Source: Victivallaceae bacterium
GTDB taxonomy: Bacteria > Verrucomicrobiota > Lentisphaeria > Victivallales > Victivallaceae
Assembly (NCBI GenBank): GCA_021647315.1
Contig: JAKIUY010000025.1
Location: 1 to 44,413 of the forward strand
DNA length: 44,413 nucleotides
Reading direction: 5' to 3'
In this document: positions 112 through 43,861 of the stretch, in pieces
Position numbering within the stretch: the first letter of the stretch is position 1
How the letters are laid out: every line of letters starts with the position of its first letter
Notes under the pieces: generated by a model
Told to the model about the DNA's origin: nothing
The model's database searches: none
What the model saw: only the letters and a program-made list of their open reading frames with translations
Translations under genes and position numbers: made by a program

Positions 112-198
112 ACTTTTCAATTAACATATATAAAAGAGTAATGAATTTATGAGGTTGCACATTGCAATAACAGTTTTTGTGGTATATAATAGAATCTA

Positions 199-212
199 CA
201 GACGTTCGTCTG
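199..212. promoter_or_regulatory. 14-bp near-palindrome CAGACGTTCGTCTG; the same motif recurs at 25040-25053
   Basis: Read directly. Both copies lie less than 150 nt upstream of a start codon (yqiJ-like gene and AraC at 25065). Confidence 0.3.
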
Positions 213-218
213 GCTATA

Positions 219-256
219 CTGCTTCAAACTTCGCGACTGTGTCGCTACGGAAGCAG
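219..256 (-). repeat. Family-B structured repeat, copy 1 (two-stem hairpin CTGCTTC..GCGAC-tgt-GTCGC..GAAGCAG), inverted relative to the other copies
   Basis: Reverse complement aligns with 20080-20117 and 32511-32548. Outer and inner stems differ between copies by compensatory changes. Confidence 0.5.
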
Positions 257-339: not shown

Positions 340-924
340 ATGAGTGAGATGATCAGTAAAGTTGGGGAATATCTGTCTAATGCACATTCAGTTTATTGGT
401 TTTTTGCCGTTATTGGCAGTGTGGTATTTATTATCCAATTCCTGTTGACCTTAATGGGGTTCGATGATGGCGGCACGGATATTGATGGTGACGGTGATAT
501 TTCGTTCGGCGAACATGCCGATAGTGGTTTAGGTGATTTTCATATCTTTTCAGTGCGCTCGATTGTCGCATTTGTGATGTTTTTTGGTTGGGGGGGCATC
601 TTATGGGGACATCACGGTTGGTTAGGTTTTTTTGGTGCACTGCTGCTCGGAATTGGAATGATGGTGGTTACCGCGTTTATTCTCTTGGGAATGATGAGAA
701 TGCAACAGGAAAGCAATATTGGCTCCAAAGATATTGTTGGATGCAGTGGAATTGTCTATTTGCGTATTCCGGAAAATGAACAGGGGAAAGTGACGGTTAC
801 TGTTGCGGAATGCACCCGTGAAATCAAGGCAATTGCCGATGAAGAACTTAAAAAAGGGATTGCCGTAGATGTTATTAAACATATTAACGGTCGCCTCTAT
901 AAAGTTAAAAAGATTGAAAGTTAG
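340..924 (+). CDS. NfeD-like / YqiJ-family membrane protein: N-terminal DGDGD acidic stretch, transmembrane segments, C-terminal OB-fold
   Basis: GAGGTGA ribosome-binding site before the ATG. C-terminus GIVYLRIPE..GKVTVTV..GIAVDVI is typical of NfeD short homologues. It sits directly upstream of a flotillin gene, the classic yqiJ-yqiK arrangement. Confidence 0.65.
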   Translation: MSEMISKVGEYLSNAHSVYWFFAVIGSVVFIIQFLLTLMGFDDGGTDIDGDGDISFGEHADSGLGDFHIFSVRSIVAFVMFFGWGGILWGHHGWLGFFGALLLGIGMMVVTAFILLGMMRMQQESNIGSKDIVGCSGIVYLRIPENEQGKVTVTVAECTREIKAIADEELKKGIAVDVIKHINGRLYKVKKIES

Positions 925-2580: not shown

Positions 2581-2745
2581 GGAAATTATTTCATCTGTAG
2601 CTGCGCTCGTGTAGGTATTTTTGACAGGACAACAGGATAAAACAGGATAAAATAAAAAATATTTGTGTCTCCGTGGTTTTCTTTTTCCTCAAAATACCTA
2701 CCCGAACGCAGTGACAGATGAAGCGTAGCGTAATAATTTCCATTA
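2581..2745. mobile_element. MITE-like element of about 165 bp with imperfect terminal inverted repeats of about 50 bp and a central ACAGGATAAAACAGGATAAAA box
   Basis: Left arm 2581-2628 (GGAAATTATT..TCATCTGTAGCTGCGCTCGTGTAGGTATTTTTGACAGG) matches the reverse complement of 2685-2740 (GGAAATTATTACGCTACGCTTCATCTGTCACTGCGTTCGGGTAGGTATTTTGAGG). A second, truncated copy is at 6121-6210. Confidence 0.45.
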
Positions 2746-3037: not shown

Positions 3038-5527
3038 ATGACAAAACCGACTGTTCATTTGATTTGTAATGCCCACCTCGATCCGGTCTGGCTCTGGGAA
3101 TGGGAAGAGGGAGCTGCTGAGGCAATTAGTACATTTAGAGTCGCTGCCGATTTCTGTGATGAATTCGATGGCTTTGTTTTTAATCATAACGAAGTTATTC
3201 TTTACGAATGGGTCGAAGATTACGAACCGGAATTGTTTGCCCGCATTCAGCGCTTGGTTAAAGCTGGCAAATGGCATATCATGGGTGGCTGGTACTTGCA
3301 GCCTGACTGTAATATGCCCAGCGGAGAATCTTTTGTCCGCCAAATCCTGCTTGGTCAAAACTATTTTCAGGATAAATTCGGGGTGTCACCAACGACTGCG
3401 ATCAACTTTGATCCGTTCGGTCACACTCAAGGGCTGGTGCAGATTCTGGCAAAAAGCGGTTATGATGCATATCTTTTCTGCCGCCCGGGTACTACTGATA
3501 TAACTCTGCCACGTGAAGAATTTATCTGGCAAGGTTATGATGGTTCACAGGTGTTGGCAACTCGCCTATTCGGCGCATATTTAAGTGCTCGTGGAAAAGC
3601 GGCGGAAAAAGTTGAAAATTTACTTAAAGAAAGAAAGGATTTCAACCATATCGCTGTCGCCTGGGGTGTCGGTAATCACGGCGGTGGACCATCAAAAATT
3701 GATCTGAAAAAACTCTCGGCATTGGCGGCAGAACGCGATGACTTGAATATTATTCACTCTACACCGGAAAAATATTTCGCTGAACTGAACAGTGAACGTG
3801 TTGACCTGCCGGTGCGTGATGATGATATTAACCCATGGTCAGTGGGTTGTTATACTTCACAGGTTAGATTGAAACAGCTGCATCGTCAAATTGAAAATGA
3901 ACTCTATAAAACAGAAAAAATGCTAACAAATGCTTGGCGTCAGGGCCGCATGGAGTATCCAGCTGAAAAAATGGCGGAAGCGATGCGTGATCTTTGCCAT
4001 GCGGAATTCCATGACATTCTGCCCGGCTCATCTATTCAGCCGGTCGAAGATACTTCAATTCGCCTGATGAATCATGGGCTGGAAATTCTTTCACGCCTCA
4101 AAGCCAAGGCATTTTTTGCCCTCGCAGCCGGACAGCCGAAAGCCGTTGAAGATACGATTCCTATCCTGGTATACAATCCACACCCCTATCCGATCACAAC
4201 GACAGTTGAATGCGAATTTCAATTGGCCGATCAGAATTGGGATGGTGATTTTACCCTTTGTCAGGTAAAAAATAGTTCAGAAAAACTGCCAACCCAGCTT
4301 GAACAGGAAGATAGCCATCTAAATCTCGACTGGCGCAAAAAAGTTGTCTTCAACGCCACCTTGGCACCGTCACAGATGAACCGTTTTGACTGCGATCTGA
4401 TAAAAGTGGACAAACGACCCCTGCCCGATCTTAAGCCGCTCAATGGAGGTTATACTATTGATAATGGCGAGCTTAAAGTCAGGATAAACAGCCGAACCGG
4501 GCTCCTTGACTGTTATGAAGTTGCCGGGAAAAATATTCTGGCCCGTCAAGCATTCAAACCACTGGTTATGGCTGATAATGAAGATCCATGGGGTATGAAA
4601 ACGACAAAGTTCCGCAAAAAAGCTGGAGCATTCAAATTGATGTCAAAACAGGCCAGCGCAGAACATACCGGCATTAAAGCAACTGAAATTTCTTCGGTGC
4701 GGGTGATTGAATATGGTACGGTAAGAACTGTTATTGAAGCATCGTTATGTTATAATAATTCATTTATGCTGATCTCCTATAAAATTCCGGCAACCGGGAC
4801 TGAACTCGAAGTTGAAGTGCGGGTGACCTGGAATGAAAAAGATAAAATGCTCAAACTCTCATTGCCACTGGCTTTTGAGGCGTCAAACAGTCATGCTCAA
4901 ACCGCCTACGGTTTTCATGCATTGCCGATGAACGGCGATGAGGCTATCGCACAAAAATGGCTAACCGCAAGCTCTACGACTACAGATAATGCGTTACTGG
5001 TAATTGATGACAGCACCTATGGTTGTGATGTAACAAACAAAGAACTGCGTTTGAGTCTGTTACGTTCTTCAGCCTACAGCGGGCACCCGATTAATGACCG
5101 GGATATTGTGCCGCAGGATCGTTTTACCGCCAGAATAGATCAGGGCGAGCGTATCTTTAAATTCTGGATTAATGGTGGTTCCGTTGCGAAAATAAGCCAG
5201 CATGCTGAACGAGCGGCATTGAACAAAAACGAGCAGCCGGTAGCACTGTCATTCTTCCCCAGCGGGCACGGACAACCGGTCAGTCAGGGGCCGGTATTGC
5301 ATGGCGATCATACCATTATCATGACCGCCTGCAAGAAAGCTGAAACTGAAGATGCACTTATTATCAGATTATATAATGGCTCTGCAAAAACAGCACAGAC
5401 TGCGTTGACCATAGCGGAGACCAATATATTATCAACTGAAATCTCTTTCAATAAGTTTGAAGTAAAAACCCTGAAAGTAGATTTGTCAACAGGAACCGTG
5501 CAGGAATGCAACATGATGGAAAAATAA
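3038..5527 (+). CDS. Glycoside hydrolase family 38 alpha-mannosidase (MngB-like)
   Basis: N-terminus HLICNAHLDPVWLW matches the GH38 HxHxDxxW signature. Length 829 aa. Confidence 0.8.
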   Translation: MTKPTVHLICNAHLDPVWLWEWEEGAAEAISTFRVAADFCDEFDGFVFNHNEVILYEWVEDYEPELFARIQRLVKAGKWHIMGGWYLQPDCNMPSGESFVRQILLGQNYFQDKFGVSPTTAINFDPFGHTQGLVQILAKSGYDAYLFCRPGTTDITLPREEFIWQGYDGSQVLATRLFGAYLSARGKAAEKVENLLKERKDFNHIAVAWGVGNHGGGPSKIDLKKLSALAAERDDLNIIHSTPEKYFAELNSERVDLPVRDDDINPWSVGCYTSQVRLKQLHRQIENELYKTEKMLTNAWRQGRMEYPAEKMAEAMRDLCHAEFHDILPGSSIQPVEDTSIRLMNHGLEILSRLKAKAFFALAAGQPKAVEDTIPILVYNPHPYPITTTVECEFQLADQNWDGDFTLCQVKNSSEKLPTQLEQEDSHLNLDWRKKVVFNATLAPSQMNRFDCDLIKVDKRPLPDLKPLNGGYTIDNGELKVRINSRTGLLDCYEVAGKNILARQAFKPLVMADNEDPWGMKTTKFRKKAGAFKLMSKQASAEHTGIKATEISSVRVIEYGTVRTVIEASLCYNNSFMLISYKIPATGTELEVEVRVTWNEKDKMLKLSLPLAFEASNSHAQTAYGFHALPMNGDEAIAQKWLTASSTTTDNALLVIDDSTYGCDVTNKELRLSLLRSSAYSGHPINDRDIVPQDRFTARIDQGERIFKFWINGGSVAKISQHAERAALNKNEQPVALSFFPSGHGQPVSQGPVLHGDHTIIMTACKKAETEDALIIRLYNGSAKTAQTALTIAETNILSTEISFNKFEVKTLKVDLSTGTVQECNMMEK

Positions 5528-6120: not shown

Positions 6121-6210
6121 AGGAAATTATTACGCCACGCTTCATCTGTCACTGCGTTCGGGTAGGTATTTTGACAGGATAACAGGATAAAACAGGATAA
6201 AATAAAAAAT
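6121..6210. repeat. Truncated second copy of the MITE-like element (one inverted-repeat arm plus central ACAGGAT box), continuing into an imperfect ~26-bp palindrome
   Basis: GGAAATTATTACGCCACGCTTCATCTGTCACTGCGTTCGGGTAGGTATTTTGACAGGATAACAGGATAAAACAGGATAAAATAAAAAATCCTGTTAATCTTGTTCATCCTGTC. ACAGGAT occurs twice and ATCCTGT twice around an A-rich centre. Confidence 0.45.
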
Positions 6211-6244
6211 CCTGTTAATCTTGTTCATCCTGTCTGAAAAAGTT

Positions 6245-6261
6245 CCGGCAAAGCCGGTTAT
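6245..6261 (+). promoter_or_regulatory. Family-A motif CCGGCAAAGCCGG-TTAT, 30 nt upstream of xylB
   Basis: A 5-3-5 palindrome followed by TTAT. Identical cores at 17088-17104, 42939-42955 and 43666-43682, all in the + orientation and all upstream of + strand genes. Confidence 0.4.
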
Positions 6262-6290
6262 GTTCTAAAGTAAAATCAAAAGGCAATATT

Positions 6291-9528: not shown

Positions 9529-9628
9529 AACTAAACTTTTCCTGATTTTTGTGTGCGGGTAAATCTTCATCTAAGTTACAGTTCAAAACATTTCTCTGCA
9601 ATCTCATCTGTAAAAAAACAGAAAAACT
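9529..9628 (-). promoter_or_regulatory. Family-D conserved 5' region, copy D2
   Basis: Distal box TTTTTCTGTTTTTTT, core GAGATTGCAGAG, TAACTT 17 nt downstream, and proximal box CAAAAATCAGGAAAAGTTT immediately before the ATG. The proximal box is the reverse complement of the distal box. Confidence 0.45.
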
Positions 9629-9789
9629 TTAGGTGAACTGAAATGTTTTCGGCAGAAAGAGTGAATTCAACGCAATTTTTATTTTAATATTGACTTTAGG
9701 CTATTTTCGATTAGATTAATCACACATATTTTAAATGTAATTAGGGAAATTCTCATGAATCTAAAATCAATTTGGCAGGGATTTAATCA

Positions 9790-15315: not shown

Positions 15316-15432
15316 TGTTATTGCTTGTTTTGTTGTTATAACAGTAATTTTTCGTAAATCTAACCTCATCTGTATAATATACAAGCAGGCAAACGGAGTT
15401 TAAATCTAATAAAATATTTTTTAAAAATACCT

Positions 15433-15523
15433 AAATTTTCCTGTTTTTTCAAATATGAGATTGCAGGATGGGTTCTAAACGGTAAATTAGAATTTATAAT
15501 TCACCCAAAAACAGGAAAATTTA
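15433..15523 (+). promoter_or_regulatory. Family-D conserved 5' region, copy D1, upstream of the GspF-like gene
   Basis: AAATTTTCCTGTTTTTT (15433-15449), TGAGATTGCAGGA (15456-15468), TAAATT (15483-15488, 16-nt spacer after TTGCAG), and AAAAACAGGAAAATTT (15507-15522). The last box is the exact reverse complement of the first over 16-17 nt. Confidence 0.45.
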
Positions 15524-16915: not shown

Positions 16916-16991
16916 TATTGTTGAGGATAAAATATAAACTTGCTTTATATTACATTTTTAATATATTTATCTAAATAGAAAATTGTATTTA

Positions 16992-17104
16992 GCCACGAAT
17001 GCACTAATTTAAAAGTTCGCGCATTCGCGGCTGAAAGATTTGTTTTTATTCGTGCATTCGTGGCTAACGTTTTTATCTTTATTAGTCCCGGCAAAGCCGG
17101 TTAT
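16992..17104 (+). repeat. Composite repeat: three 13-mer GC boxes (GCCACGAATGCAC inverted; GCGCATTCGCGGC; GTGCATTCGTGGC), each followed by T-rich tracts, ending in the family-A CCGGCAAAGCCGG-TTAT motif
   Basis: 16992-17004 is the exact reverse complement of 17052-17064. 17019-17031 is a C/T variant. The unit GCGCATTCGCGGCTAACGTTTTT..TTTATTCGT(T/C)CCGGCAAAGCCGGTTAT recurs at 42902-42955. Confidence 0.5.
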
Positions 17105-17117
17105 ATCTATAAATTAA

Positions 17118-19829
17118 ATGAGAAATATGATTGTTGAACTTTTACTGACCCCAAAGGGGCATCTGCGGCTTGAAACTACTCAGAACAACGAAGACTGGAA
17201 GGTTCCAGCGAAGGTAGCTGAACAACTGAAGGCTGGGTTTGCGGGCGATAATGGCGATGGCCTGATAATGTTGCTTCATGACGAGCTACCAGTCGGTATG
17301 CCGGCAATGTTTCAATATTTCCGAAAATTTACTAAGGAGTTTGTGACCAGACTCTGCCACCTGCCGGAACCTGAAAACGAAGAACTTACCGTTCTATTTG
17401 ATAGTATGCGCCCCAATTTAGCCTATTTCGGTTTTGAGGCATTGGAAATTCCCCCAATGCGCGGAGCTGAATATTTCAATGCCGAAACTTTACTTGCGCT
17501 ATGGCAACAGCTGGAGCTACATGTTCAAACTGCATTCAAGGGCTATTCCGGCAGTTTTTGCGAATGCGTGCGGCAATTCAACCCGGTCTGGAAACAGGTC
17601 GGTAAAGTTAGTTTTCATCTGGCAGAGAACAAACAGGATGTGGACGGTAACCATCCATTCGCATTTATGGCGACCTTTATTCATCGACTATCAGAAAGTG
17701 ATCAACCTAAACATCTGCCGTTAGGTACCGCCCTGAAAGCATATGCAAATGATCGCAATGCCCTGCTTACCTTGTTAAAACCGGTACAGGCGGCAGGTGA
17801 ACGCAGTGAGCTTATTCAAAAAATGGTGGACAACAAAACAATTTTTCGTCCCGCTGCCTGGTCGTCTCTTGAAGCATATAATTTCCTGCAGGATGTTGCG
17901 GCATTGGAAGAGAGCGGGATTATCGTTCGGATTGCCAAGTTATGGAAAACGTCAAAACCGTCAAAAGTTCAGGTCGCAGTCAATATCGATATTAAAAAAG
18001 GGCAGAAGATGGGCATTAATGCCCTGTTAAACTTTTCATGGAAAGTTAGTCTGGATGGCGTTTATCTGACGAAAGCTGAACTGGAAGAGATGTTTAATTC
18101 CGACGGCGGTTTAGTCCGAATCAAAGGGCAATGGGTTGAAGCTGATCCAGATAGAATTAAACAGTTATTGGCACAGTGGGATGACGCTAATCGCATGGCT
18201 GGCGACGGCTTTTCTTTTGTTCAGGGGCTGAAGCTGCTGGCTGGAGCACAGTTGCAGGGCAAGGATGGCGAACTGCCGGATATTGATCGCGATTTCAGTT
18301 CAATTAATGCCGTTGGTGAAATGAAAAAACTGCTGGATGAACTGAATAGTCCGTCACAAATTGCTTTACCTAAAATATCTAAGTTTCTCCAGCGAACGCT
18401 ACGGCCCTATCAATTGGATGGCGTTAAATGGCTCTGGCGCATGACTGAACTGGGTCTTGGGGGCTGTCTGGCCGACGATATGGGGCTGGGAAAAACCTTG
18501 CAGGTACTGACAATGCTGTCACTGCTCAAACAGCGTGGTGATACGGCAAAAATTCCGGCTCTATTAATTGCCCCGGCATCATTACTGAAAAACTGGGAAC
18601 AGGAATCCGCTAAATTTACTCCGGAACTGCGTTTCGGTATCCTGCACCCGATGGCAATGGAGCGTGCAGAACTGGCTGAACCGGAACTGTTATTAGGTAA
18701 ATTTGATGCTTTAGTCACCACGTATGGCATGGCAACGCGACTGAAACAACTGAGCAAAATTGAATGGACTGCGATAATTATTGATGAAGCGCAGGCGATT
18801 AAAAATCCATCATCACAACAGAGCAGGGCAGTACGTTCATTGCGAAGCTCACGCAAATTGGCTCTAACCGGAACTCCGGTCGAAAACCGTTTAACTGACC
18901 TTTGGTCTATTTTTGACTATATTTCTCCAGGACTGTTGGGGAATATCAACGGGTTTAAAACTTTTGTGAAAAAACTGACTGATGATGCTGGCGGGGTTAA
19001 TTATGCCCCATTGCGACGCTTGACCAAACCATATATCATGCGGCGGTTGAAAACTGATAAACATATTATTTCCGACCTGCCGGATAAGACAGAGATGAAA
19101 GTATATTGTTCTCTGACCAAACAACAGGCGACGTTGTACCAGCAGGCAGTTAGCAATATGGCTCGCGAGCTGAAAGAACTTGATGATATTCAGCGGCGCG
19201 GTCTGGTGTTTAAATACTTAATGGCGTTTAAACAGATCTGTAATCATCCGGCACAATTTGACGGCAGTGGTGATTTTAACGCAGCCGCTGGGGGTAAATT
19301 TCAGCGGATCACGGCTATTGTTGAAGAGATCAATTCACGTCAGGAGAAGGTCTTGATCTTTACCCAGTTCAGAGAGATGATTGAACCGCTGCATGAACAT
19401 TTAGCGAGCTGTTTTGGGCGTCCGGGCTTGATGCTGCATGGTGGAACTTCGATAAAAAAACGACAGCAGTTAGTCGAAGAGTTTCAACGTGAATCAGGTC
19501 CGCCATTTTTTATTTTATCGCTTAAAGCTGCCGGTACTGGTCTCAATTTAACTGCAGCCAATCATGTGATCCATTTTGACCGCTGGTGGAATCCTGCGGT
19601 GGAAAATCAGGCAACCGATCGCGCCTACCGTATCGGACAACATCGCAATGTCTTAGCCCACAAATTTATCTGTAAAGGGACGATTGAAGAAAAAATTGAT
19701 GCACTAATTGATGATAAACGCGAACTATCCGACTCGCTAATTGAAGGCAGTACGGAAAAAATGTTAACCGATATGAATAACAACGAATTACTCGACTTCG
19801 TCGCCCTTGATGTAAATACAGTGATATAA
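17118..19829 (+). CDS. SNF2-family DNA-dependent ATPase/helicase with an N-terminal extension of about 400 aa
   Basis: Helicase motifs DDMGLGKTLQ (I), DEAQAIKN (II), LTGTPVENRL (III), and LSLKAAGTGLNLTAANHVIHFDRWWNPAVENQATDRAYRIGQ (V-VI). Confidence 0.9.
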   Translation: MRNMIVELLLTPKGHLRLETTQNNEDWKVPAKVAEQLKAGFAGDNGDGLIMLLHDELPVGMPAMFQYFRKFTKEFVTRLCHLPEPENEELTVLFDSMRPNLAYFGFEALEIPPMRGAEYFNAETLLALWQQLELHVQTAFKGYSGSFCECVRQFNPVWKQVGKVSFHLAENKQDVDGNHPFAFMATFIHRLSESDQPKHLPLGTALKAYANDRNALLTLLKPVQAAGERSELIQKMVDNKTIFRPAAWSSLEAYNFLQDVAALEESGIIVRIAKLWKTSKPSKVQVAVNIDIKKGQKMGINALLNFSWKVSLDGVYLTKAELEEMFNSDGGLVRIKGQWVEADPDRIKQLLAQWDDANRMAGDGFSFVQGLKLLAGAQLQGKDGELPDIDRDFSSINAVGEMKKLLDELNSPSQIALPKISKFLQRTLRPYQLDGVKWLWRMTELGLGGCLADDMGLGKTLQVLTMLSLLKQRGDTAKIPALLIAPASLLKNWEQESAKFTPELRFGILHPMAMERAELAEPELLLGKFDALVTTYGMATRLKQLSKIEWTAIIIDEAQAIKNPSSQQSRAVRSLRSSRKLALTGTPVENRLTDLWSIFDYISPGLLGNINGFKTFVKKLTDDAGGVNYAPLRRLTKPYIMRRLKTDKHIISDLPDKTEMKVYCSLTKQQATLYQQAVSNMARELKELDDIQRRGLVFKYLMAFKQICNHPAQFDGSGDFNAAAGGKFQRITAIVEEINSRQEKVLIFTQFREMIEPLHEHLASCFGRPGLMLHGGTSIKKRQQLVEEFQRESGPPFFILSLKAAGTGLNLTAANHVIHFDRWWNPAVENQATDRAYRIGQHRNVLAHKFICKGTIEEKIDALIDDKRELSDSLIEGSTEKMLTDMNNNELLDFVALDVNTVI

Positions 19830-20011
19830 GAGGCAATTTCAAAACTCTCCGTGGCAGATTTTTGATTTTTGACGGCATCTTTTGATTTTGAGCTCATTCG
19901 CATACCTGCAGGTATGTTCAATCGCTAAAAAATCAAAATCTACTCGCCAAAAACAGTAAAAATCATGCTCACGTTGGACTTTTGAAATCACCTCATAAAA
20001 AAGAAAAGAGT

Positions 20012-20076
20012 TTAGCCCTTGATAATGCAATTTTTAATTGCATTATCAAGGGCTAACAAGTTTTTGTTTTTTATTG
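20012..20076 (+). terminator. Strong Rho-independent terminator after the SNF2 gene
   Basis: Perfect 21-bp stem TTAGCCCTTGATAATGCAATT-ttt-AATTGCATTATCAAGGGCTAA, followed by CAAGTTTTTGTTTTTTATTG. Confidence 0.7.
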
Positions 20077-20079
20077 TTT

Positions 20080-20155
20080 CCGCTTCCGTAGCGACGAAGG
20101 AGCGGAGTTTGAAGCGGCATCTGCTTTCAGGTGCCACCTGATTAGGAAATATATT
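20080..20155 (+). repeat. Family-B structured repeat, copy 2, ending at the ATG of the SWIM gene
   Basis: CCGCTTCCGTAGCGACGAAGGAGCGGAGTTTGAAGCGGCATCTGCTTTCAGGTGCCACCTGATTAGGAAATATATT-ATG. About 85% identical to 32511-32586. Confidence 0.5.
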
Positions 20156-21106
20156 ATGTCAAGATATTATGATGATTATCCGGCTTATGTTTCGGTTGCG
20201 GAACGTAAACACCAGATTCAGCAGAAAATGGTCAAACTACGCAAACAGGGGCAAGAACTTTCGCCAGTGGTGATTGAAGGCCGTCTTATTGCCAGAACCT
20301 TCTGGGGCAAAGCATGGTGTACCAATATTGAGTCATACCATGATTATTCGAATCGCCTGCCACGCGCTCGTAGTTACGTCAAACATGGTGCGGTGGTTGA
20401 TCTGAAAATCGAGACCGGTAAAATTACCGCATTGGTTCAGGGCTCTGAACTTTATAATGTCGATATTACAATAGAAAAACTCAATACAAATCGTTGGGAG
20501 AAAATTAAACAGGAATGTGCCGGAAAAATTAATTCACTGATTGATCTGATTCAGGGCAAACTTTCTGATGAGGTTATTGCTCTACTTTGTCGCCACGATG
20601 AAGGACTGTTCCCTGCACCGAATGAAATTAGATTGGACTGCGATTGCCCGGACTGGGCGGATCTATGCAAACACCTAGCGGCAGTTCTTTATGGAATCGG
20701 TGCCCGACTGGATCATGAACCTGAACTTTTTTTCCTGTTGCGCGGTGTCGATCAGCATGAACTTTTCACTGCCGGTTTGACGGACAACCTGACCGGTACA
20801 GATGTCGAATCAGATATTGCAGACGATGCTCTAGGTGACATCTTTGGTATTGATTTAGATGAGTTGGATGATATCATGCCTGAACCATCTCCGGTAAAAG
20901 AAGTAGCTAAGCCCAAAAAACAGACCGCTAAGGCTAAATCAACCAAGGCAACCCCTAGAGTCAAGAAGGTGACAAAAAAAAGTGTAGTAGCCAAAAGCAC
21001 TGTGGTAAAAAAGCCAAGCAAGTCAAAGTCACAGCCCATAGAGGTGAAAGTCACTAAAGTTAAAGAGAAAAAGGCAGGGCGTTCAATGCGCCGTGGCAAA
21101 AAATAA
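20156..21106 (+). CDS. SWIM zinc-finger protein with a C-terminal histone-H1-like Lys/Ala/Pro-rich tail
   Basis: CDCPDWADLCKHLAAVLY matches the SWIM CxCx(n)CxH signature. The tail reads KEVAKPKKQTAKAKSTKATPRVKKVTKKSVVAKSTVVKKPSKSKS.. The bacterial SNF2 plus SWIM pairing is established in the literature. Confidence 0.8.
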   Translation: MSRYYDDYPAYVSVAERKHQIQQKMVKLRKQGQELSPVVIEGRLIARTFWGKAWCTNIESYHDYSNRLPRARSYVKHGAVVDLKIETGKITALVQGSELYNVDITIEKLNTNRWEKIKQECAGKINSLIDLIQGKLSDEVIALLCRHDEGLFPAPNEIRLDCDCPDWADLCKHLAAVLYGIGARLDHEPELFFLLRGVDQHELFTAGLTDNLTGTDVESDIADDALGDIFGIDLDELDDIMPEPSPVKEVAKPKKQTAKAKSTKATPRVKKVTKKSVVAKSTVVKKPSKSKSQPIEVKVTKVKEKKAGRSMRRGKK

Positions 21107-22117: not shown

Positions 22118-22233
22118 CTCTTATCTATTATATTGTAGTATAAATTTTTTATAGGAAAAAGAAGTCAGCCGCGAATACGTTAATAAAAAAAATATTAGGT
22201 GTCTCAGCAACGGAAATTCAGGAGAAATATATT

Positions 22234-28425: not shown

Positions 28426-29529
28426 ATGGCAATTAAACGATGGAGAATTATGATGAAGATATCTGATATACCTAGTAGTATTTTGGAGGATTTCAGACGT
28501 GGTATGGTGATCCCGGCAATGCCGTTGGCGTTGGACGAACAACGTAATTTCTTAAAACAGAATCAGCGTGCACTGGCGCGTTATTATATTGATGCGGGGG
28601 CAGGGGGGATTGCGGTCGGGGTTCATTCAACCCAGTTTGAAATTCGTGATCCTGAAATAAACCTTTTTGAACCGGTATTGTCATCAACGTCGCAATATAT
28701 TGATGAATGGTGCGCGGAAACTGGGCGTGAGATTTTGAAAGTTGCCGGAGTATGTGGCAAAACAGCACAAGCGATAGCGGAAGCACAGTTTGCGGTGGCT
28801 AATGGCTACCATGCCTGTTTGCTGAGTATGTCGGCGTTTAAAGCTGACAGTGAAGCCGCGATGCTGGAACATTGCCGGGCGCTCGCAGATGTCATTCCGG
28901 TAATCGGCTTTTATCTGCAGCCAAGTGTTGGAGGTCGTATTCTTAAATATTCATTTTGGCGTGAATTCGCTAAAATTGAAAATATACTGGCAATAAAAAT
29001 GGCGCCGTTTAATCGTTATCAGACTCTGGATGTGGTCAGAGCATTGGCTGATTCCGGTCATGCTGACCACATAATGCTTTATACCGGCAATGATGATAAT
29101 ATAATCATTGATTTGCTGAGTGAATATAAAATTCAGACCGTTGGCGGTGAAAAAAAATTGCGGATTAGAGGTGGTTTGCTTGGGCATTGGTGTGTGTGGA
29201 CCAAGCGGGCAGTTGAGTTATTGAATGAAATTCATGAACTATTGGATTCCGGTGATGAAATACCGGCAGAAATGCTTTCGCGCAATATCGCGGTTACTGA
29301 CAGTAATGCTGCACTGTTTGACCCGGAGAATGATTTTGCCGGCTGTATTCCCGGTATTCATGAAGTATTGCGGCGGCAGGGACTGTTACCGGGTACCTGG
29401 TGTCTCAATCTAAATGAGGTATTGTCGCCTGGTCAGTCGGAGGAGCTTGATCGGGTCTATAATAGTTACCCCAAGCTTAATGATGATGAATTTGTCAAGA
29501 CGAACTTGCCGAGGTGGATGGCTGAGTGA
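28426..29529 (+). CDS. Dihydrodipicolinate synthase / N-acetylneuraminate lyase (DapA) family protein
   Basis: VIPAMPLALDEQRNFLKQNQRALARYYIDAGAGGIAVGVHSTQFE is a TIM-barrel class I aldolase DapA-like N-terminus. The true start is probably the second ATG (MMKIS) after a GGAG. Confidence 0.6.
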   Translation: MAIKRWRIMMKISDIPSSILEDFRRGMVIPAMPLALDEQRNFLKQNQRALARYYIDAGAGGIAVGVHSTQFEIRDPEINLFEPVLSSTSQYIDEWCAETGREILKVAGVCGKTAQAIAEAQFAVANGYHACLLSMSAFKADSEAAMLEHCRALADVIPVIGFYLQPSVGGRILKYSFWREFAKIENILAIKMAPFNRYQTLDVVRALADSGHADHIMLYTGNDDNIIIDLLSEYKIQTVGGEKKLRIRGGLLGHWCVWTKRAVELLNEIHELLDSGDEIPAEMLSRNIAVTDSNAALFDPENDFAGCIPGIHEVLRRQGLLPGTWCLNLNEVLSPGQSEELDRVYNSYPKLNDDEFVKTNLPRWMAE

Positions 29530-29560
29530 GTGGACTGGGTGAATCGAGATGATCGAGTGG

Positions 29561-29650
29561 ACTGATGGGACTGATGGGACTGATGGGACTGATGGGACTG
29601 ATGGGACTGATGGGACTGATGGGACTGATGGGACTGATGGGACTGATGGT
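29561..29650. repeat. Perfect tandem array of the 9-bp unit ACTGATGGG (9 exact copies plus 1 variant)
   Basis: Read directly. It lies just downstream of the DapA-like stop codon and 170 nt upstream of the TetR gene. Related GTGGACTGGGTG direct repeats sit at 28404-28415 and 29530-29541. Confidence 0.9.
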
Positions 29651-29822
29651 GGGCGGTAATCTGCTTTGTAGCGATGTCAGTTACTGGTACTTTTTTTTGA
29701 TTCGGTGGCTTGCCATCACATAGGTCTCATTTGCCTCATTAGACCCATTCTTTCAGTGGCTTTACAGAACGACTCTATCGGGTCAGAACGCAAAACAGGA
29801 ATGAAAACAGGGGATAAACTTC

Positions 29823-32418: not shown

Positions 32419-32460
32419 CAGTTGCGGAGTTTGAAGCGGTAATCTGCCTTCAGGTGCCAC
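32419..32460 (+). repeat. Family-B repeat, partial copy (right half only), a 42-nt exact duplicate of 32529-32570
   Basis: CAGTTGCGGAGTTTGAAGCGGTAATCTGCCTTCAGGTGCCAC is identical in both places. Confidence 0.6.
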
Positions 32461-32510
32461 TTGTTTTGTAATATCCTGTTATTTTTTGGCAGAATATTTG
32501 ATTTCTTACT

Positions 32511-32586
32511 CCGCTTCCGTAGCAACGCAGTTGCGGAGTTTGAAGCGGTAATCTGCCTTCAGGTGCCACCTGATTAGGAGATTATG
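32511..32586 (+). repeat. Family-B structured repeat, copy 3 (CCGCTTC-cgta-GCAAC-gca-GTTGC-ggag-ttt-GAAGCGG ... GGTGCCACCTGATTAGGAGATT-ATG)
   Basis: The inner stem GCAAC/GTTGC is compensatory relative to GCGAC/GTCGC in copy 1. The 3' end carries an RBS-like AGGAG and an ATG, but here it overlaps the stop codon of the opposite-strand dus gene. Confidence 0.5.
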
Positions 32587-33583: not shown

Positions 33584-33690
33584 AAGTTGCTGAACTTTTC
33601 CTGTTTTTTAAAGAACTACTAAACTATCATTTAATTTACTATTCCAATTTAACTCCTGCAATCTCACATGACAAAAAACAGGAAAAATTA
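33584..33690 (-). promoter_or_regulatory. Family-D conserved 5' region, copy D3, upstream of dus
   Basis: Reverse complement reads AATTTTTCCTGTTTTTTG..TGAGATTGCAGGAG..(17 nt)..TAAATT....TTAAAAAACAGGAAAAGTTCAGCAACTT-ATG. Confidence 0.45.
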
Positions 33691-33751
33691 CCGGTTCCTG
33701 AAATCCTGCTTGAATTACGTATGCAGTACAAACCGGGGTCAAATGGGAAGC

Positions 33752-40802: not shown

Positions 40803-41159
40803 CTTGTTTTCCTTTGGGTTTAAGTTAAGTGGCTCCTGAAAGTAGCAGGCTTCTTAATTCTTCATGACTGTCAATGAGAAGAGCAGTCCGCAGTCCGCAG
40901 CCCATCGGCCTATTGTGTCCGTCCGTCCAACAGTCCAACTTCTCAACGCGCAGGCTCAAGTCCATTAGTCAATCACACGCAGTTGTGCACTACTGTGTCT
41001 GTGTCGCTAAGGACGCAGAGAGCCCTTTTAAATTAAAAATACAGAAAAAGAGGGAATATACAAGTTTTTTATAAAGATATATTTAAGAATTGAAAAAAAC
41101 ATGAAGGTGATTATTGTATAGCAACAGTACTAGGGTTAGACAAAAAAAGGAATATCAAT

Positions 41160-42800: not shown

Positions 42801-42901
42801 TCAGACTGCTGTGTGACCAGTAGTTTGCGAAAACAGTCCAGAGCCGTTTCATGCTATAGCAAAAGTGTTTTGATAATAAGCTTCTTATAGCTTTTAAATC
42901 A

Positions 42902-42955
42902 GCGCATTCGCGGCTAACGTTTTTTGTTTTTATTCGTTCCGGCAAAGCCGGTTAT
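42902..42955 (+). repeat. Composite family-A repeat (GCGCATTCGCGGC box, T-rich tract, then CCGGCAAAGCCGG-TTAT), 19 nt upstream of the dnaQ-like gene
   Basis: Near-identical to 17052-17104. Confidence 0.5.
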
Positions 42956-42973
42956 GTTTATGGATTTTAATTA

Positions 42974-43537: not shown

Positions 43538-43665
43538 AGTAGCATTATCAGGGCGTAAAAAAGTTAAGATTTCAAGTGTTTGAATGTATAGGCGGCAAGT
43601 GCTTAATCCCTCGTTGTGGATTATCTGCCTATGCGCTTGGAAATCGCAGGGTACTGTTTTTAGTT

Positions 43666-43682
43666 CCGGCAAAGCCGGTTAT
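43666..43682 (+). promoter_or_regulatory. Family-A motif CCGGCAAAGCCGG-TTAT, 180 nt upstream of rplU
   Basis: Exact core match to the other three copies. Confidence 0.4.
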
Positions 43683-43861
43683 GTGCAATTTGCTTCTACA
43701 GGCATTATGAATCATTACTTATAAATGCCATCTATTTGCTTTTTTCTCTTTTTTCGGGCTTGCATGATTCTCTAATTGTTATATATTATGCGTTCATGAA
43801 TATAATTTAAGAAGCTGAATGTTTTCAGCAAAGTCAATATATTAATTAGGAGTCATAGCTT

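What the first reader, a model, noticed from the sequence alone, without database searches (positions are those of the whole stretch)
20080..20155. Family-B dispersed two-stem hairpin element with compensatory base changes between copies; one copy supplies the ribosome-binding site and ATG of the SWIM gene
Copies lie at 219-256 (inverted), 20080-20155, 32511-32586, and a partial exact duplicate at 32419-32460.
- The outer stem is CTGCTTC/GAAGCAG in copy 1 and CCGCTTC/GAAGCGG in copies 2 and 3. The T-to-C change is matched by A-to-G.
- The inner hairpin is GCGAC-tgt-GTCGC in copy 1 and GCAAC-gca-GTTGC in copy 3. The G-to-A change is matched by C-to-T.
Covariation that preserves pairing means selection acts on a folded nucleic acid. 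That fits a REP-like element, a small RNA, or a protein-recognised cruciform.
The 3' extension (TCTGCYTTCAGGTGCCACCTGATTAGGARAT-ATG) contains the near-palindrome GGTG-C-CACC. In copy 2 it runs straight into the SWIM start codon. In copy 3 the same AGGAG..ATG ends on the stop codon of dus on the opposite strand. The module is therefore portable and was copied independently of any ORF.
Basis: seen in the sequence. Interest (0 to 1): 0.55.

Follow-up and report, generated by a model that had tools for sequence, protein, structure and literature searches.

The report
Small mobile two-hairpin repeat of Victivallales
The repeat is real: a 60-75-base, two-hairpin DNA element that has inserted at different intergenic sites in one group of uncultured bacteria (Victivallales). 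It behaves like a small selfish mobile repeat of the REP/MITE kind and does not supply the start of the neighbouring gene.

Summary
They hold up in 45 distinct copies from the window, three Victivallales MAGs and metagenome contigs. 95% of cells are paired and none of 500 shuffles reaches the observed covariation.

The anatomy is a 7-bp outer stem, a conserved asymmetric internal loop (CGUA / G-N-AGUUU), a 4-6-bp inner stem with a variable triloop, a linker, and a second hairpin typical of each lineage.

It is an insertion. Relatives lack copy 2 upstream of the SWIM gene and copy 3 downstream of dus. A 96%-identical relative shares copy 1 but with a mutated loop motif.

The SWIM ATG and its TAGGAA ribosome-binding site are native, so the claim that the element supplies them fails. 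Instead, the element sits immediately 5' of native TAGGA/TAGA.

I found no inverted terminal repeats, no clear target duplication, no fixed orientation to genes, no shared neighbour function and no Rfam match. Some Victivallales genomes also carry it as the 3' part of a roughly 245-nt mosaic repeat.

Best reading: a new lineage-specific family of non-autonomous hairpin elements, probably moved as folded single-stranded DNA. The enzyme was not found.

The parts
20080..20117 (+). Copy 2, hairpin 1. Outer stem CCGCTTC (20080-86) pairs with GAAGCGG (20111-17). Internal loop is CGTA / GGAGTTT. The inner stem GCGAC-GAA-GGAGC is imperfect.
   Evidence: Model hit of 52.1 bits. Fold.
20127..20141 (+). 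Copy 2, hairpin 2 (TCAGGTG-C-CACCTGA). The insertion ends at 20141-20143. TAGGAA (20143-20148) and the ATG (20156) are native to the SWIM gene.
   Evidence: Empty sites in L030, L031 and L032. Conserved SWIM N-terminus.
32511..32548 (+). Copy 3, hairpin 1 (CCGCTTC ... GCAAC-GCA-GTTGC ... GAAGCGG).
   Evidence: 55.4 bits.
32559..32573 (+). Copy 3, hairpin 2 (TCAGGTGCCACCTGA), followed by TTAGGAGAT. The dus stop codon (TTA on this strand) is at 32582-32584.
   Evidence: Four relatives lack the element downstream of dus.
32419..32466 (+). Partial copy. It is truncated at its 5' side within the inner-stem loop and has a degenerate hairpin 2 (CACTTGT). It lies 109 nt upstream of copy 3, and the junction shares 4 nt (CAGT/ACTG) with the flank.
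   Evidence: D5, 96% over 48 nt. for the alignment boundary.
199..256 (-). Copy 1. Hairpin 1 is at 219-256 (CTGCTTC ... GCGAC-ACA-GTCGC ... GAAGCAG). Its own hairpin 2 is at 199-212 (CAGACG-AA-CGTCTG). It lies antisense in the 5' leader of ORF 340..924, just downstream of the promoter-like TTGCAA-17-TATAAT at 162-190.
   Evidence: The copy is present but mutated in L051/L052 and absent in L053/L054.

Best explanation
This is a lineage-specific family of small, non-autonomous mobile DNA elements in Victivallales (the PVC group of bacteria). The minimal unit is 60-75 nt.

**Structure of the unit**
- Hairpin 1 has a 7-bp outer stem, a conserved asymmetric internal loop (CGTA on one side, G-N-AGTTT on the other) and a 4-6-bp inner stem with a 3-nt loop.
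- A linker of about 10 nt follows.
- Hairpin 2 is a 5-7-bp stem that differs between lineages but is always paired.

**Shown**
- Copies are gained and lost between close relatives.
- They sit only in intergenic DNA, in either orientation to genes.
- The hairpin-2 end abuts a T(T/A)A or TAGGA-type sequence. That sequence pre-exists in two empty sites and is often the stop codon of a converging gene.
- There are no terminal inverted repeats, and no target duplication is recognisable.
- Each genome has its own subfamily.

**Inferred**
- The element is moved in trans as a folded single DNA strand by a hairpin-recognising (HUH/Y1-type or similar) transposase or nuclease, as REP/REPIN elements and IS200/IS605-derived PATEs are.
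- The conserved internal loop would be the recognition or cleavage motif, and the stems would be needed only as structure.
- Any effect on neighbouring genes, such as hairpins in 5' leaders or just after stop codons, would be secondary.

**Confidence**
- About 0.8 that it is a mobile or selfish dispersed repeat.
- About 0.35 for the single-strand HUH mechanism specifically.
For: **Insertion polymorphism**
- Three relatives have an uninterrupted T-run plus TAGGAAG where the window has copy 2.
- Four relatives, including one whose Dus protein is 97% identical, lack copy 3.
- Copy 1 is shared with the 96%-identical relative and absent from relatives at about 85%.
- The hairpin-1 model finds no copy in 122 kb of DNA from close relatives.

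**Family size and spread**
- 26 exact-pattern copies in three Victivallales MAGs, one in a MAG labelled Acidobacteriota, and 7 in metagenome contigs.
- 47 model hits in all.

**No functional tie to genes**
- All four flank orientations occur.
- No Pfam family is shared by more than two of 91 neighbouring ORFs.
- Downstream genes are diverse.

**One-sided conserved flank**
- The first base after hairpin 2 is T in about 26 of 30 copies.
- Window-type flanks read TTAGGAAAT, TTAGGAGAT, TTAGGAATT, CTAGGTTAT and TGTAGATTC.
- TAGGAA and TAGA are native in the empty sites.
- In 10 of the 15 copies whose gene on the hairpin-2 side converges on that end, the stop codon touches that end.

**Other features**
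- Structure is preserved through compensatory changes.
- Subfamilies are specific to each genome, as with master-copy bursts.
- Individual copies decay.
- Copies cluster and form mosaics with other hairpin modules, including a repeated unit of about 245 nt.
- No Rfam family matches.

**Literature**
- IS200/IS605 elements insert next to a short adjacent motif without target duplication, depend on end hairpins in single-stranded DNA, and have gene-less PATE derivatives (PMC10055086).
- GTAG-tagged REPs occur in the PVC superphylum (PMC3733652).
Against: - No transposase has been linked to the element. There is none among flanking ORFs in the part of the Pfam summary shown. That test is weak.
- The two hairpins are unlike each other, whereas IS200/IS605 left and right end hairpins are similar.
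- The GTA(G) lies inside an internal loop, not at the outer foot of the palindrome as in GTAG REPs.
- Copy number per genome is modest: 5-13 exact-pattern copies in MAGs assembled into megabase-scale contigs.
- Copies are single or in tandem, not inverted pairs.
- Target duplication cannot be excluded, because the one clean empty site is a T-run.
- Non-Watson-Crick positions are mostly A.C on the strand as written (15 against 6 G.U). The reverse strand also folds about 1 kcal/mol better. That would also fit an RNA read from the opposite strand.
Confidence: 0.5

Rival explanations
1. It is a structured RNA module that works after transcription. Examples would be a 3'-end stabiliser or translation-termination modulator placed right after stop codons, as shown for some E. 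coli REPs, or a protein-binding motif within a small RNA. Under this reading, stem covariation and the conserved internal loop reflect selection on the RNA.
For: - Strong structure conservation around a conserved asymmetric purine-rich loop.
- In 10 copies the reverse strand would sit at the very 3' end of an mRNA, flush with the stop codon.
- A.C positions outnumber G.U by 15 to 6, so they would be G.U on the reverse strand. That strand folds about 1 kcal/mol better, Wilcoxon p=0.005 on copies that are not independent.
- Copy 1 lies within a transcribed leader, just after a promoter-like site that is conserved in relatives.
- The long form of about 245 nt lies in long gene-free stretches.
Against: - About half of the copies face the other way relative to the adjacent gene.
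- Neighbouring genes share no function.
- There is no conserved promoter and no terminator.
- No Rfam family matches, including all known ribozyme classes.
- Copies are gained and lost between relatives with 96-97% protein identity, and individual copies lose the 'conserved' motif or suffer deletions.
Confidence: 0.2
2. It is a classical miniature inverted-repeat element (MITE) moved as double-stranded DNA by a DDE transposase, for example a TA-targeting IS630/Tc1 type as proposed for Neisseria Correia elements. The hairpins would be incidental.
For: - Small size and intergenic location.
- AT-rich or TA-containing flank at one end.
- Modular and internally deleted variants.
Against: - The two ends are not inverted repeats of each other.
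- No TA or other duplication is visible at the SWIM site. The left flank is GTTT and the right flank is TTAGGA.
- Compensatory preservation of two internal stems is not expected for a DDE substrate.
Confidence: 0.1
3. It is a repeated binding site in double-stranded DNA, or an extruded cruciform, for a host protein such as a nucleoid-associated protein, a regulator or a topoisomerase. It would have spread by recombination.
For: - Hairpin 2 is a near-perfect 15-nt palindrome, typical of dimeric binding sites.
Against: - The palindrome's sequence changes completely between lineages while pairing is kept: ATCCGT/ACGGAT, TCAGGTG/CACCTGA, CAGACG/CGTCTG, GCGGAT/ATCCGC. That argues for structure, not a sequence-specific operator.
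- Neighbouring genes share no function.
Confidence: 0.07
4. It is a chance similarity, or a purely local duplication within this contig.
For: Only 3.5 copies occur in the window, and two of them are 109 nt apart.
Against: - Motif counts exceed every shuffle.
- Copies occur in at least four other genomes and in several metagenomes.
- True chance matches to the pattern lack the pairing.
Confidence: 0.01

Closest known systems
REP / REPIN / BIME elements (repetitive extragenic palindromes moved by RAYT, a Y1 HUH transposase), including the GTAG-tagged REP families described in PVC bacteria (PMC3733652)
   Same: - An imperfect palindrome of about 38 nt with an internal loop.
- Strictly extragenic.
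- Subfamilies specific to each genome, with complementary stem changes.
- Often right after stop codons.
- Clustering and mosaics with other small modules.
- A GTAG string next to a stem.
   Different: - GTA lies inside the internal loop, enclosed by the outer stem, and the final G is paired.
- The stem next to it is only 4-6 bp, against 6-13 bp.
- A second, unrelated hairpin always follows.
- There are tens, not hundreds, of copies.
- There are no inverted dimers.
- No RAYT gene has been identified.
PATEs, the gene-less derivatives of IS200/IS605 insertion sequences ('peel-and-paste' single-strand transposition; PMC10055086)
   Same: - No terminal inverted repeats.
- A hairpin at each end.
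- No evident target duplication.
- A short conserved motif flanking one end only, which is present in empty sites. Read on the reverse strand this is TCCTA/TTCTA for the window type and WTTWA-like for the other type. It resembles the adjacent motifs TTTAT, TTCAT and TTAC.
   Different: - The two hairpins are dissimilar.
- Hairpin 2 abuts the flank directly, without room for the usual guide and cleavage-site spacing.
- No TnpA, TnpB or IscB was found nearby.
- No orientation bias could be tested.
Modular intergenic repeats of unknown mobility, such as pneumococcal BOX elements and enterobacterial ERIC/IRU (from my own knowledge)
   Same: - Built of modules that occur in variable combinations. 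The 245-nt unit comprises module 1, module 2, hairpin 1 and hairpin 2, with internally deleted and shortened forms.
- Stable predicted secondary structure.
- No coding capacity.
- The mobilising enzyme is unknown.
   Different: No sequence relation. The taxon is different. Here there is direct presence and absence evidence of recent insertion, and a preferred flank.

Membership tests
GTAG-type REP (RAYT-associated) | Short (20-40 bp) extragenic palindrome forming a stem-loop | tested here: met
   Hairpin 1 is a 38-nt imperfect palindrome. All real copies are intergenic.
GTAG-type REP (RAYT-associated) | Unpaired GTAG tag at one outer end of the stem-loop, with a stem of 6-13 bp (PMC3733652) | tested here: not met
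   GTA sits in the internal loop between the outer and inner stems. The G pairs in the inner stem, which is 4-6 bp.
GTAG-type REP (RAYT-associated) | High copy number, mostly as inverted dimers (REPINs/BIMEs) | tested here: not met
   There are 5-13 exact-pattern copies per MAG, each assembled into megabase-scale contigs. Copies are single or in direct tandem. This is a lower bound, because only exact pattern matches were counted.
GTAG-type REP (RAYT-associated) | A RAYT (Y1 transposase) gene in the genome flanked by the same repeats | not testable with these tools
   Whole genomes could not be scanned. No hit in about 0.6 Mb of held DNA with remembered RayT and TnpA sequences, which is weak.
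IS200/IS605-derived PATE | No terminal inverted repeats, and stem-loops at both ends | tested here: met
   Hairpin 1 and hairpin 2 lie at the two ends, and the ends are not complementary to each other.
IS200/IS605-derived PATE | Insertion next to a short specific motif at one end only, without target duplication | tested here: inconclusive
   Native TAGGAA (SWIM site) and TAGA (copy 1 site) abut the hairpin-2 end in empty and filled comparisons. The flank after hairpin 2 is T-W-R in most copies. No duplication is seen, but the one clean site is a T-run.
IS200/IS605-derived PATE | Left and right end hairpins similar in sequence, recognised by one TnpA | tested here: not met
   Hairpin 1 (two stems and an internal loop) and hairpin 2 (a simple 5-7-bp stem) share no sequence.
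Classical MITE (DDE transposase) | Terminal inverted repeats and a target-site duplication | tested here: not met
   The ends are not inverted repeats. No duplication is seen at the SWIM site.
Any Rfam RNA family (including Acido-Lenti-1 and the self-cleaving ribozyme classes) | Covariance-model match | tested here: not met
   - No match at gathering score in the window or in 13 loci.
- Nothing on the element at E<=10 in the copy 2 region (window 19980-20260).
- In L009 1-140 the only hit at E<=10 is a chance-level one overlapping the element (RF01842, E=7.7, 18.3 bits against a gathering score of 88).
Riboswitch or cis-regulatory leader | Fixed orientation upstream of a functionally coherent set of genes | tested here: not met
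   All four flank orientations occur. Neighbouring genes are unrelated.

The most novel reading that the evidence does not exclude
The conserved asymmetric internal loop (CGUA / G-N-AGUUU), held between two covarying stems, is kept across lineages in which hairpin 2 has been completely replaced. It could be the recognition or catalytic core of something not yet described. One option is the substrate of a new kind of single-strand DNA transposase or nuclease, distinct from RAYT and IS200 TnpA. The other is a functional RNA motif, protein-binding or self-cleaving, carried around the genome by a non-coding element of about 245 nt. The copies with shortened 5' ends but a common 3' end would then hint at copying from the 3' end.
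Probability: 0.12. Interest if true: 0.65.

Novelty: new member of a known kind. Interest (0 to 1): 0.35.

Why it matters
- It adds a small structured mobile repeat to a poorly studied, uncultured branch of the PVC bacteria. I found no such element described there: a full-text search for Victivallales repeats returned nothing relevant.
- Copies differ between genomes whose proteins are 96-97% identical. They are therefore usable strain markers and a source of regulatory change, because they land in 5' leaders, right before ribosome-binding sites and right after stop codons.
- For annotation: the SWIM gene's start is native and should not be re-interpreted.
- For RNA-motif hunters: covariation alone is not proof of a functional RNA here.
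- If the enzyme that moves it were found, the conserved internal loop would give a compact, defined substrate for studying single-strand hairpin recognition.

Tried and rejected
- **Known RNA families.** Rfam at gathering score on the window and 13 loci, and at E<=10 on two copies, gave nothing relevant. I suspected Acido-Lenti-1 because hits came from Lentisphaerota and an 'Acidobacteriota' MAG, but it did not match.
- **Kink-turn or sarcin-ricin reading of the internal loop.** I checked the registers by hand and they do not fit. No claim is made.
- **Group II intron domain V, integron attC and dif-like sites.** Considered from memory and rejected on architecture.
- **Gene association.** Pfam on 91 flanking ORFs and 10 downstream genes showed no enrichment and no IscB, TnpB or RT.
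- **Transposase search.** This is a weak test.
- **Promoter and terminator scans around long and short copies.** No conserved signal.
- **Public plasmid and phage collections and IMG/VR.**
  - The 245-nt unit has no match in plasmids or phages.
  - The element pattern has no match in IMG/VR.
  - Only the separate 12-bp module-1 hairpin occurs in two IMG/VR contigs.
- **A possible decayed copy at 40997-41020.** It has 2 mismatches to the 5' motif but was not recovered by the covariance model at E<=10. I do not count it.
- **An alternative helix CUCCGC/GCGGAG.** It is not kept in the AT-type copies, so I dropped it.
- **Strand of action.** The A.C against G.U counts and the folding-energy asymmetry lean toward the reverse strand, but the copies are not independent. 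This remains unresolved.

Full report
**1. What is in the window**

Oriented alike, the three hairpin-1 copies read:
- Copy 1 (219-256, minus strand): CTGCTTC-CGTA-GCGAC-ACA-GTCGC-GAAGTTT-GAAGCAG
- Copy 2 (20080-20117): CCGCTTC-CGTA-GCGAC-GAA-GGAGC-GGAGTTT-GAAGCGG
- Copy 3 (32511-32548): CCGCTTC-CGTA-GCAAC-GCA-GTTGC-GGAGTTT-GAAGCGG

Each is followed, after a linker of 6-10 nt, by a second hairpin.
- In copies 2 and 3 it is TCAGGTG-C-CACCTGA.

A 48-nt partial copy at 32419-32466 lacks the 5' half.

The motifs are far commoner than chance: 4 matches against 0.52 expected, and 7 against 0.99. Copy 2's inner stem has two central mismatches, and its best fold is an alternative one.

The window is a whole 44,413-nt contig of a MAG that NCBI names 'Victivallaceae bacterium'. 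A near-identical assembly differs at 20114, where G becomes T and one outer-stem pair breaks.

**2. It is a family**

I searched with a 21-base pattern that leaves the inner stem and the two outermost pairs free.
- It found 26 copies in three Victivallales species MAGs.
- It found one copy in a MAG labelled Acidobacteriota.
- It found one obvious chance hit inside a Sporosarcina gene.
- In metagenomes it found 7 real copies and 5 chance hits.

The chance hits show no inner hairpin, which makes them a built-in negative control.

I built a covariance model of hairpin 1. It recovers 47 copies in 313 kb of held DNA. It recovers none in 122 kb from close relatives of the window genome.

**3. Structure**

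Of 33 unique copies counted first:
- The free inner segment is a perfect hairpin in 31. Stems include GCGC/GCGC, GCAC/GTGC, GCGAC/GTCGC, GCAAC/GTTGC and GCAAAC/GTTTGC. Loops vary freely.
- The two free outer pairs are CC/GG (16 copies), AT/AT (5), AC/GT (2) and CT/AG (1).
- The next position outward is unpaired in 28 of 33, so the outer stem is 7 bp.

On the model alignment, none of 500 shuffles reaches any observed value, and slid controls score 0.073 or less:

| Measure | Observed | Shuffled |
|---|---|---|
| Cells paired | 95.1% | 87.7% |
| Double-sided changes | 40 | 13.4 |
| Covariation score | 0.213 | 0.096 |

Hairpin 2 keeps its pairing while its sequence turns over completely between lineages. 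Examples are ATCCGT/ACGGAT, GTCCGT/ACGGAC, GTCAGT/ACTGAC, GCGGAT/ATCCGC, TCAGGTG/CACCTGA, CAGACG/CGTCTG and ACGGGT/ACCCGT.

Three caveats apply.
- The pattern fixed 21 positions.
- The alignment is fitted to the model.
- Stem types follow genomes, so the double changes are a few subfamily-level events.

**4. It is an insertion, and the SWIM start is native**

*SWIM site (copy 2).*
- The SWIM N-terminus MSRYYDDYPAYVS is conserved in all 12 aligned homologues.
- Three relatives (L030-L032) have ...ATTCGTTTTTTTT-TAGGAAGAGTATATTATGTCAAG at that site.
- The window has ...ATTGTTT-[62-64 nt]-TTAGGAAATATATTATGTCAAG.
- The ribosome-binding site and ATG are therefore the gene's own.

*dus site (copy 3).*
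- Four relatives lack the element downstream of dus.
- The closest relative, with a Dus protein 97% identical, instead carries an unrelated sequence of about 210 nt between the same boundaries.

*Copy 1 site.*
- Relatives whose orthologue of the adjacent 194-aa protein (ORF 340..924) is 96% identical share the copy. Theirs has CCATTGC in place of CCGTAGC and one extra loop base.
- Relatives at 85-86% identity lack it.
- Contigs from the same metagenome samples as these copy-1-bearing contigs lack copies 2 and 3. If these contigs come from one population, which I infer from the shared samples, copies have been gained or lost within about 3-4% protein divergence.

**5. Where it lands**

Orientation relative to flanking genes is mixed: both flanks the same, both opposite, divergent and convergent all occur. 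Neighbouring genes are ordinary and unrelated, including GidA, aconitase, GatB, DnaB, ABC transporters, AraC regulators and dehydrogenases.

One end behaves specially.
- The base after hairpin 2 is T in about 26 of 30 copies, followed by T or A and then A or G.
- In 10 of the 15 copies whose gene on the hairpin-2 side converges on that end, its TAA, TAG or TGA touches or overlaps the last base of the hairpin.
- The window-type copies are followed by TTAGGAAAT, TTAGGAGAT, TTAGGAATT (L014), CTAGGTTAT (L042) and TGTAGATTC.
- In the two sites with usable empty alleles, TAGGAA and TAGA are native.

I see no terminal inverted repeats and no recognisable target duplication. The clean site is a T-run, so one or two duplicated T's cannot be excluded.

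**6. A longer form**

In several Victivallales loci, hairpins 1 and 2 are the 3' part of a conserved non-coding unit of about 245 nt.
- It starts AATAAAAATTTTGCTT.
- It contains a 12-bp hairpin, TATCCCCGATGC-AA-GCATCGGGGTAT.
- It contains a GCCGCAAAAT segment.

The unit is present at two or more loci of one MAG. Other copies are shortened from the 5' side, starting at profile positions 76, 109, 132 and 147-169. Others are internally deleted. Most, including all window copies, start at about position 180.

No Rfam family matches the unit. The 12-bp hairpin occurs on its own in two IMG/VR contigs, so the long unit looks like a mosaic of separate hairpin modules. One orthologous long copy has a 17-nt deletion that destroys the 12-bp hairpin. 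That argues against strong selection on the whole unit.

**7. Strand**

Non-Watson-Crick positions are mostly A.C as written (15 against 6 G.U). The reverse strand folds about 1 kcal/mol better on average. This leans toward the reverse strand being the folded one, as DNA or RNA. The copies are related, so it is not decisive.

**8. Interpretation**

The most likely identity is a new, lineage-specific family of non-autonomous hairpin elements of the REP / PATE / BOX kind. Several features are those of elements handled as folded single-stranded DNA by HUH-type enzymes:
- no inverted terminal repeats;
- no evident duplication;
- a short motif on one side that pre-exists in empty sites;
- structured ends kept by compensatory change;
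- subfamilies specific to each genome.

IS200/IS605 biology is summarised in PMC10055086. GTAG REPs in PVC bacteria are described in PMC3733652.

It fails defining tests for both families. The GTA is internal and not at the outer foot. The two hairpins are unlike each other. Copy number is low. There are no inverted dimers. No transposase has been found. I therefore say it works like them and do not file it as a member.

The main rival is a functional RNA module, for example one acting just after stop codons. The mixed orientation, the lack of gene association, the rapid gain and loss, and the decay of individual copies weaken it. It is not excluded.

**9. Verdict**

- The 'portable structured module' reading is supported.
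- The claim that it supplies the RBS and ATG is wrong.
- The inference from covariation to selection is overstated.
- This is an ordinary kind of element in an unexplored lineage. The unusually well-defined internal loop is the one feature worth a biochemist's attention.

Noticed in passing
window 19997-20071: Near-perfect palindrome with 36-nt arms between the SNF2 helicase gene and the SWIM gene. A-rich before and T-rich after, so it looks like a two-way terminator. Relatives keep it with a partly different sequence (L031) and flank it with inverted copies of another repeat.
   Followed up: partly
window 16989-17080 and 42893-42930; L030 4290-4460, L031 9840-9965, L032 1-60: A second dispersed repeat family, GTGCATTCGTGGCTAAC and its complement GTTAGCCACGAATGCAC. 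It often occurs as inverted pairs around other hairpins. In the relatives it occupies the very site where the window has copy 2.
   Followed up: partly
window 6227-6272, 17070-17115, 42921-42966, 43648-43693: A third repeat family with the core GTYCCGGCAAAGCCGGTTATRT, a small hairpin CCGGC-AAA-GCCGG. There are four copies in 44 kb.
   Followed up: no
window 9596-9644, 15432-15468 (inverted), 33654-33704: A fourth repeat family, CTGCAATCTCA...AAAAACAGGAAAA, present in both orientations near gene ends.
   Followed up: no
window 2590-2741 and 6122-6210: Inverted repeats of 53 nt (98% complementary), together with 42-nt and 32-nt direct repeats, bracket the 829-aa ORF at 3038..5527. This may be a bounded cassette or mobile unit.
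   Followed up: no
window 29515-29658: About 15 tandem copies of the 9-nt unit GACTGATGG, starting at the 3' end of ORF 28426..29529.
   Followed up: no
window 20114, against L001 2959: Two near-identical assemblies of this contig (44,413 and 44,434 nt) differ by G/T at this position inside the element. The T allele breaks an outer-stem pair. They also differ at 19440 and by an indel near 22192.
   Followed up: partly
L007 1523-1766, L025 1750-1991, L021 7123-7353, L041 1310-1553, L047 5092-5316, L050 7703-7934: A conserved non-coding unit of about 245 nt whose 3' end is the hairpin 1 plus hairpin 2 element. It has no Rfam match and is repeated within one MAG. Shortened and internally deleted derivatives occur elsewhere.
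   Followed up: partly
L033 11003-11215: The closest relative carries an unrelated insert of about 210 nt, with its own small hairpins, exactly where the window has copy 3 plus the partial copy. The dus 3' flank is a hot spot for insertions.
   Followed up: no
L055 1516-1538 and L056 106-128 (IMG/VR contigs): The 12-bp hairpin of the long unit (CCCCGATGC-AA-GCATCGGGG) occurs alone in two contigs classed as viral, without the rest of the unit.
   Followed up: partly
window 162-190: Promoter-like TTGCAA-17-TATAAT upstream of ORF 340..924, conserved in relatives. Copy 1 begins 9 nt after it, so the gene's leader would carry the element in reverse orientation.
   Followed up: partly
L014 (contig JAADJC010000105.1, labelled Acidobacteriota MAG): This contig carries a window-type copy, with inner stem GCAAC-GTA-GTTGC and flank TTAGGAATT. 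The contig may be mis-binned or the element may have been transferred. Not resolved.
   Followed up: no
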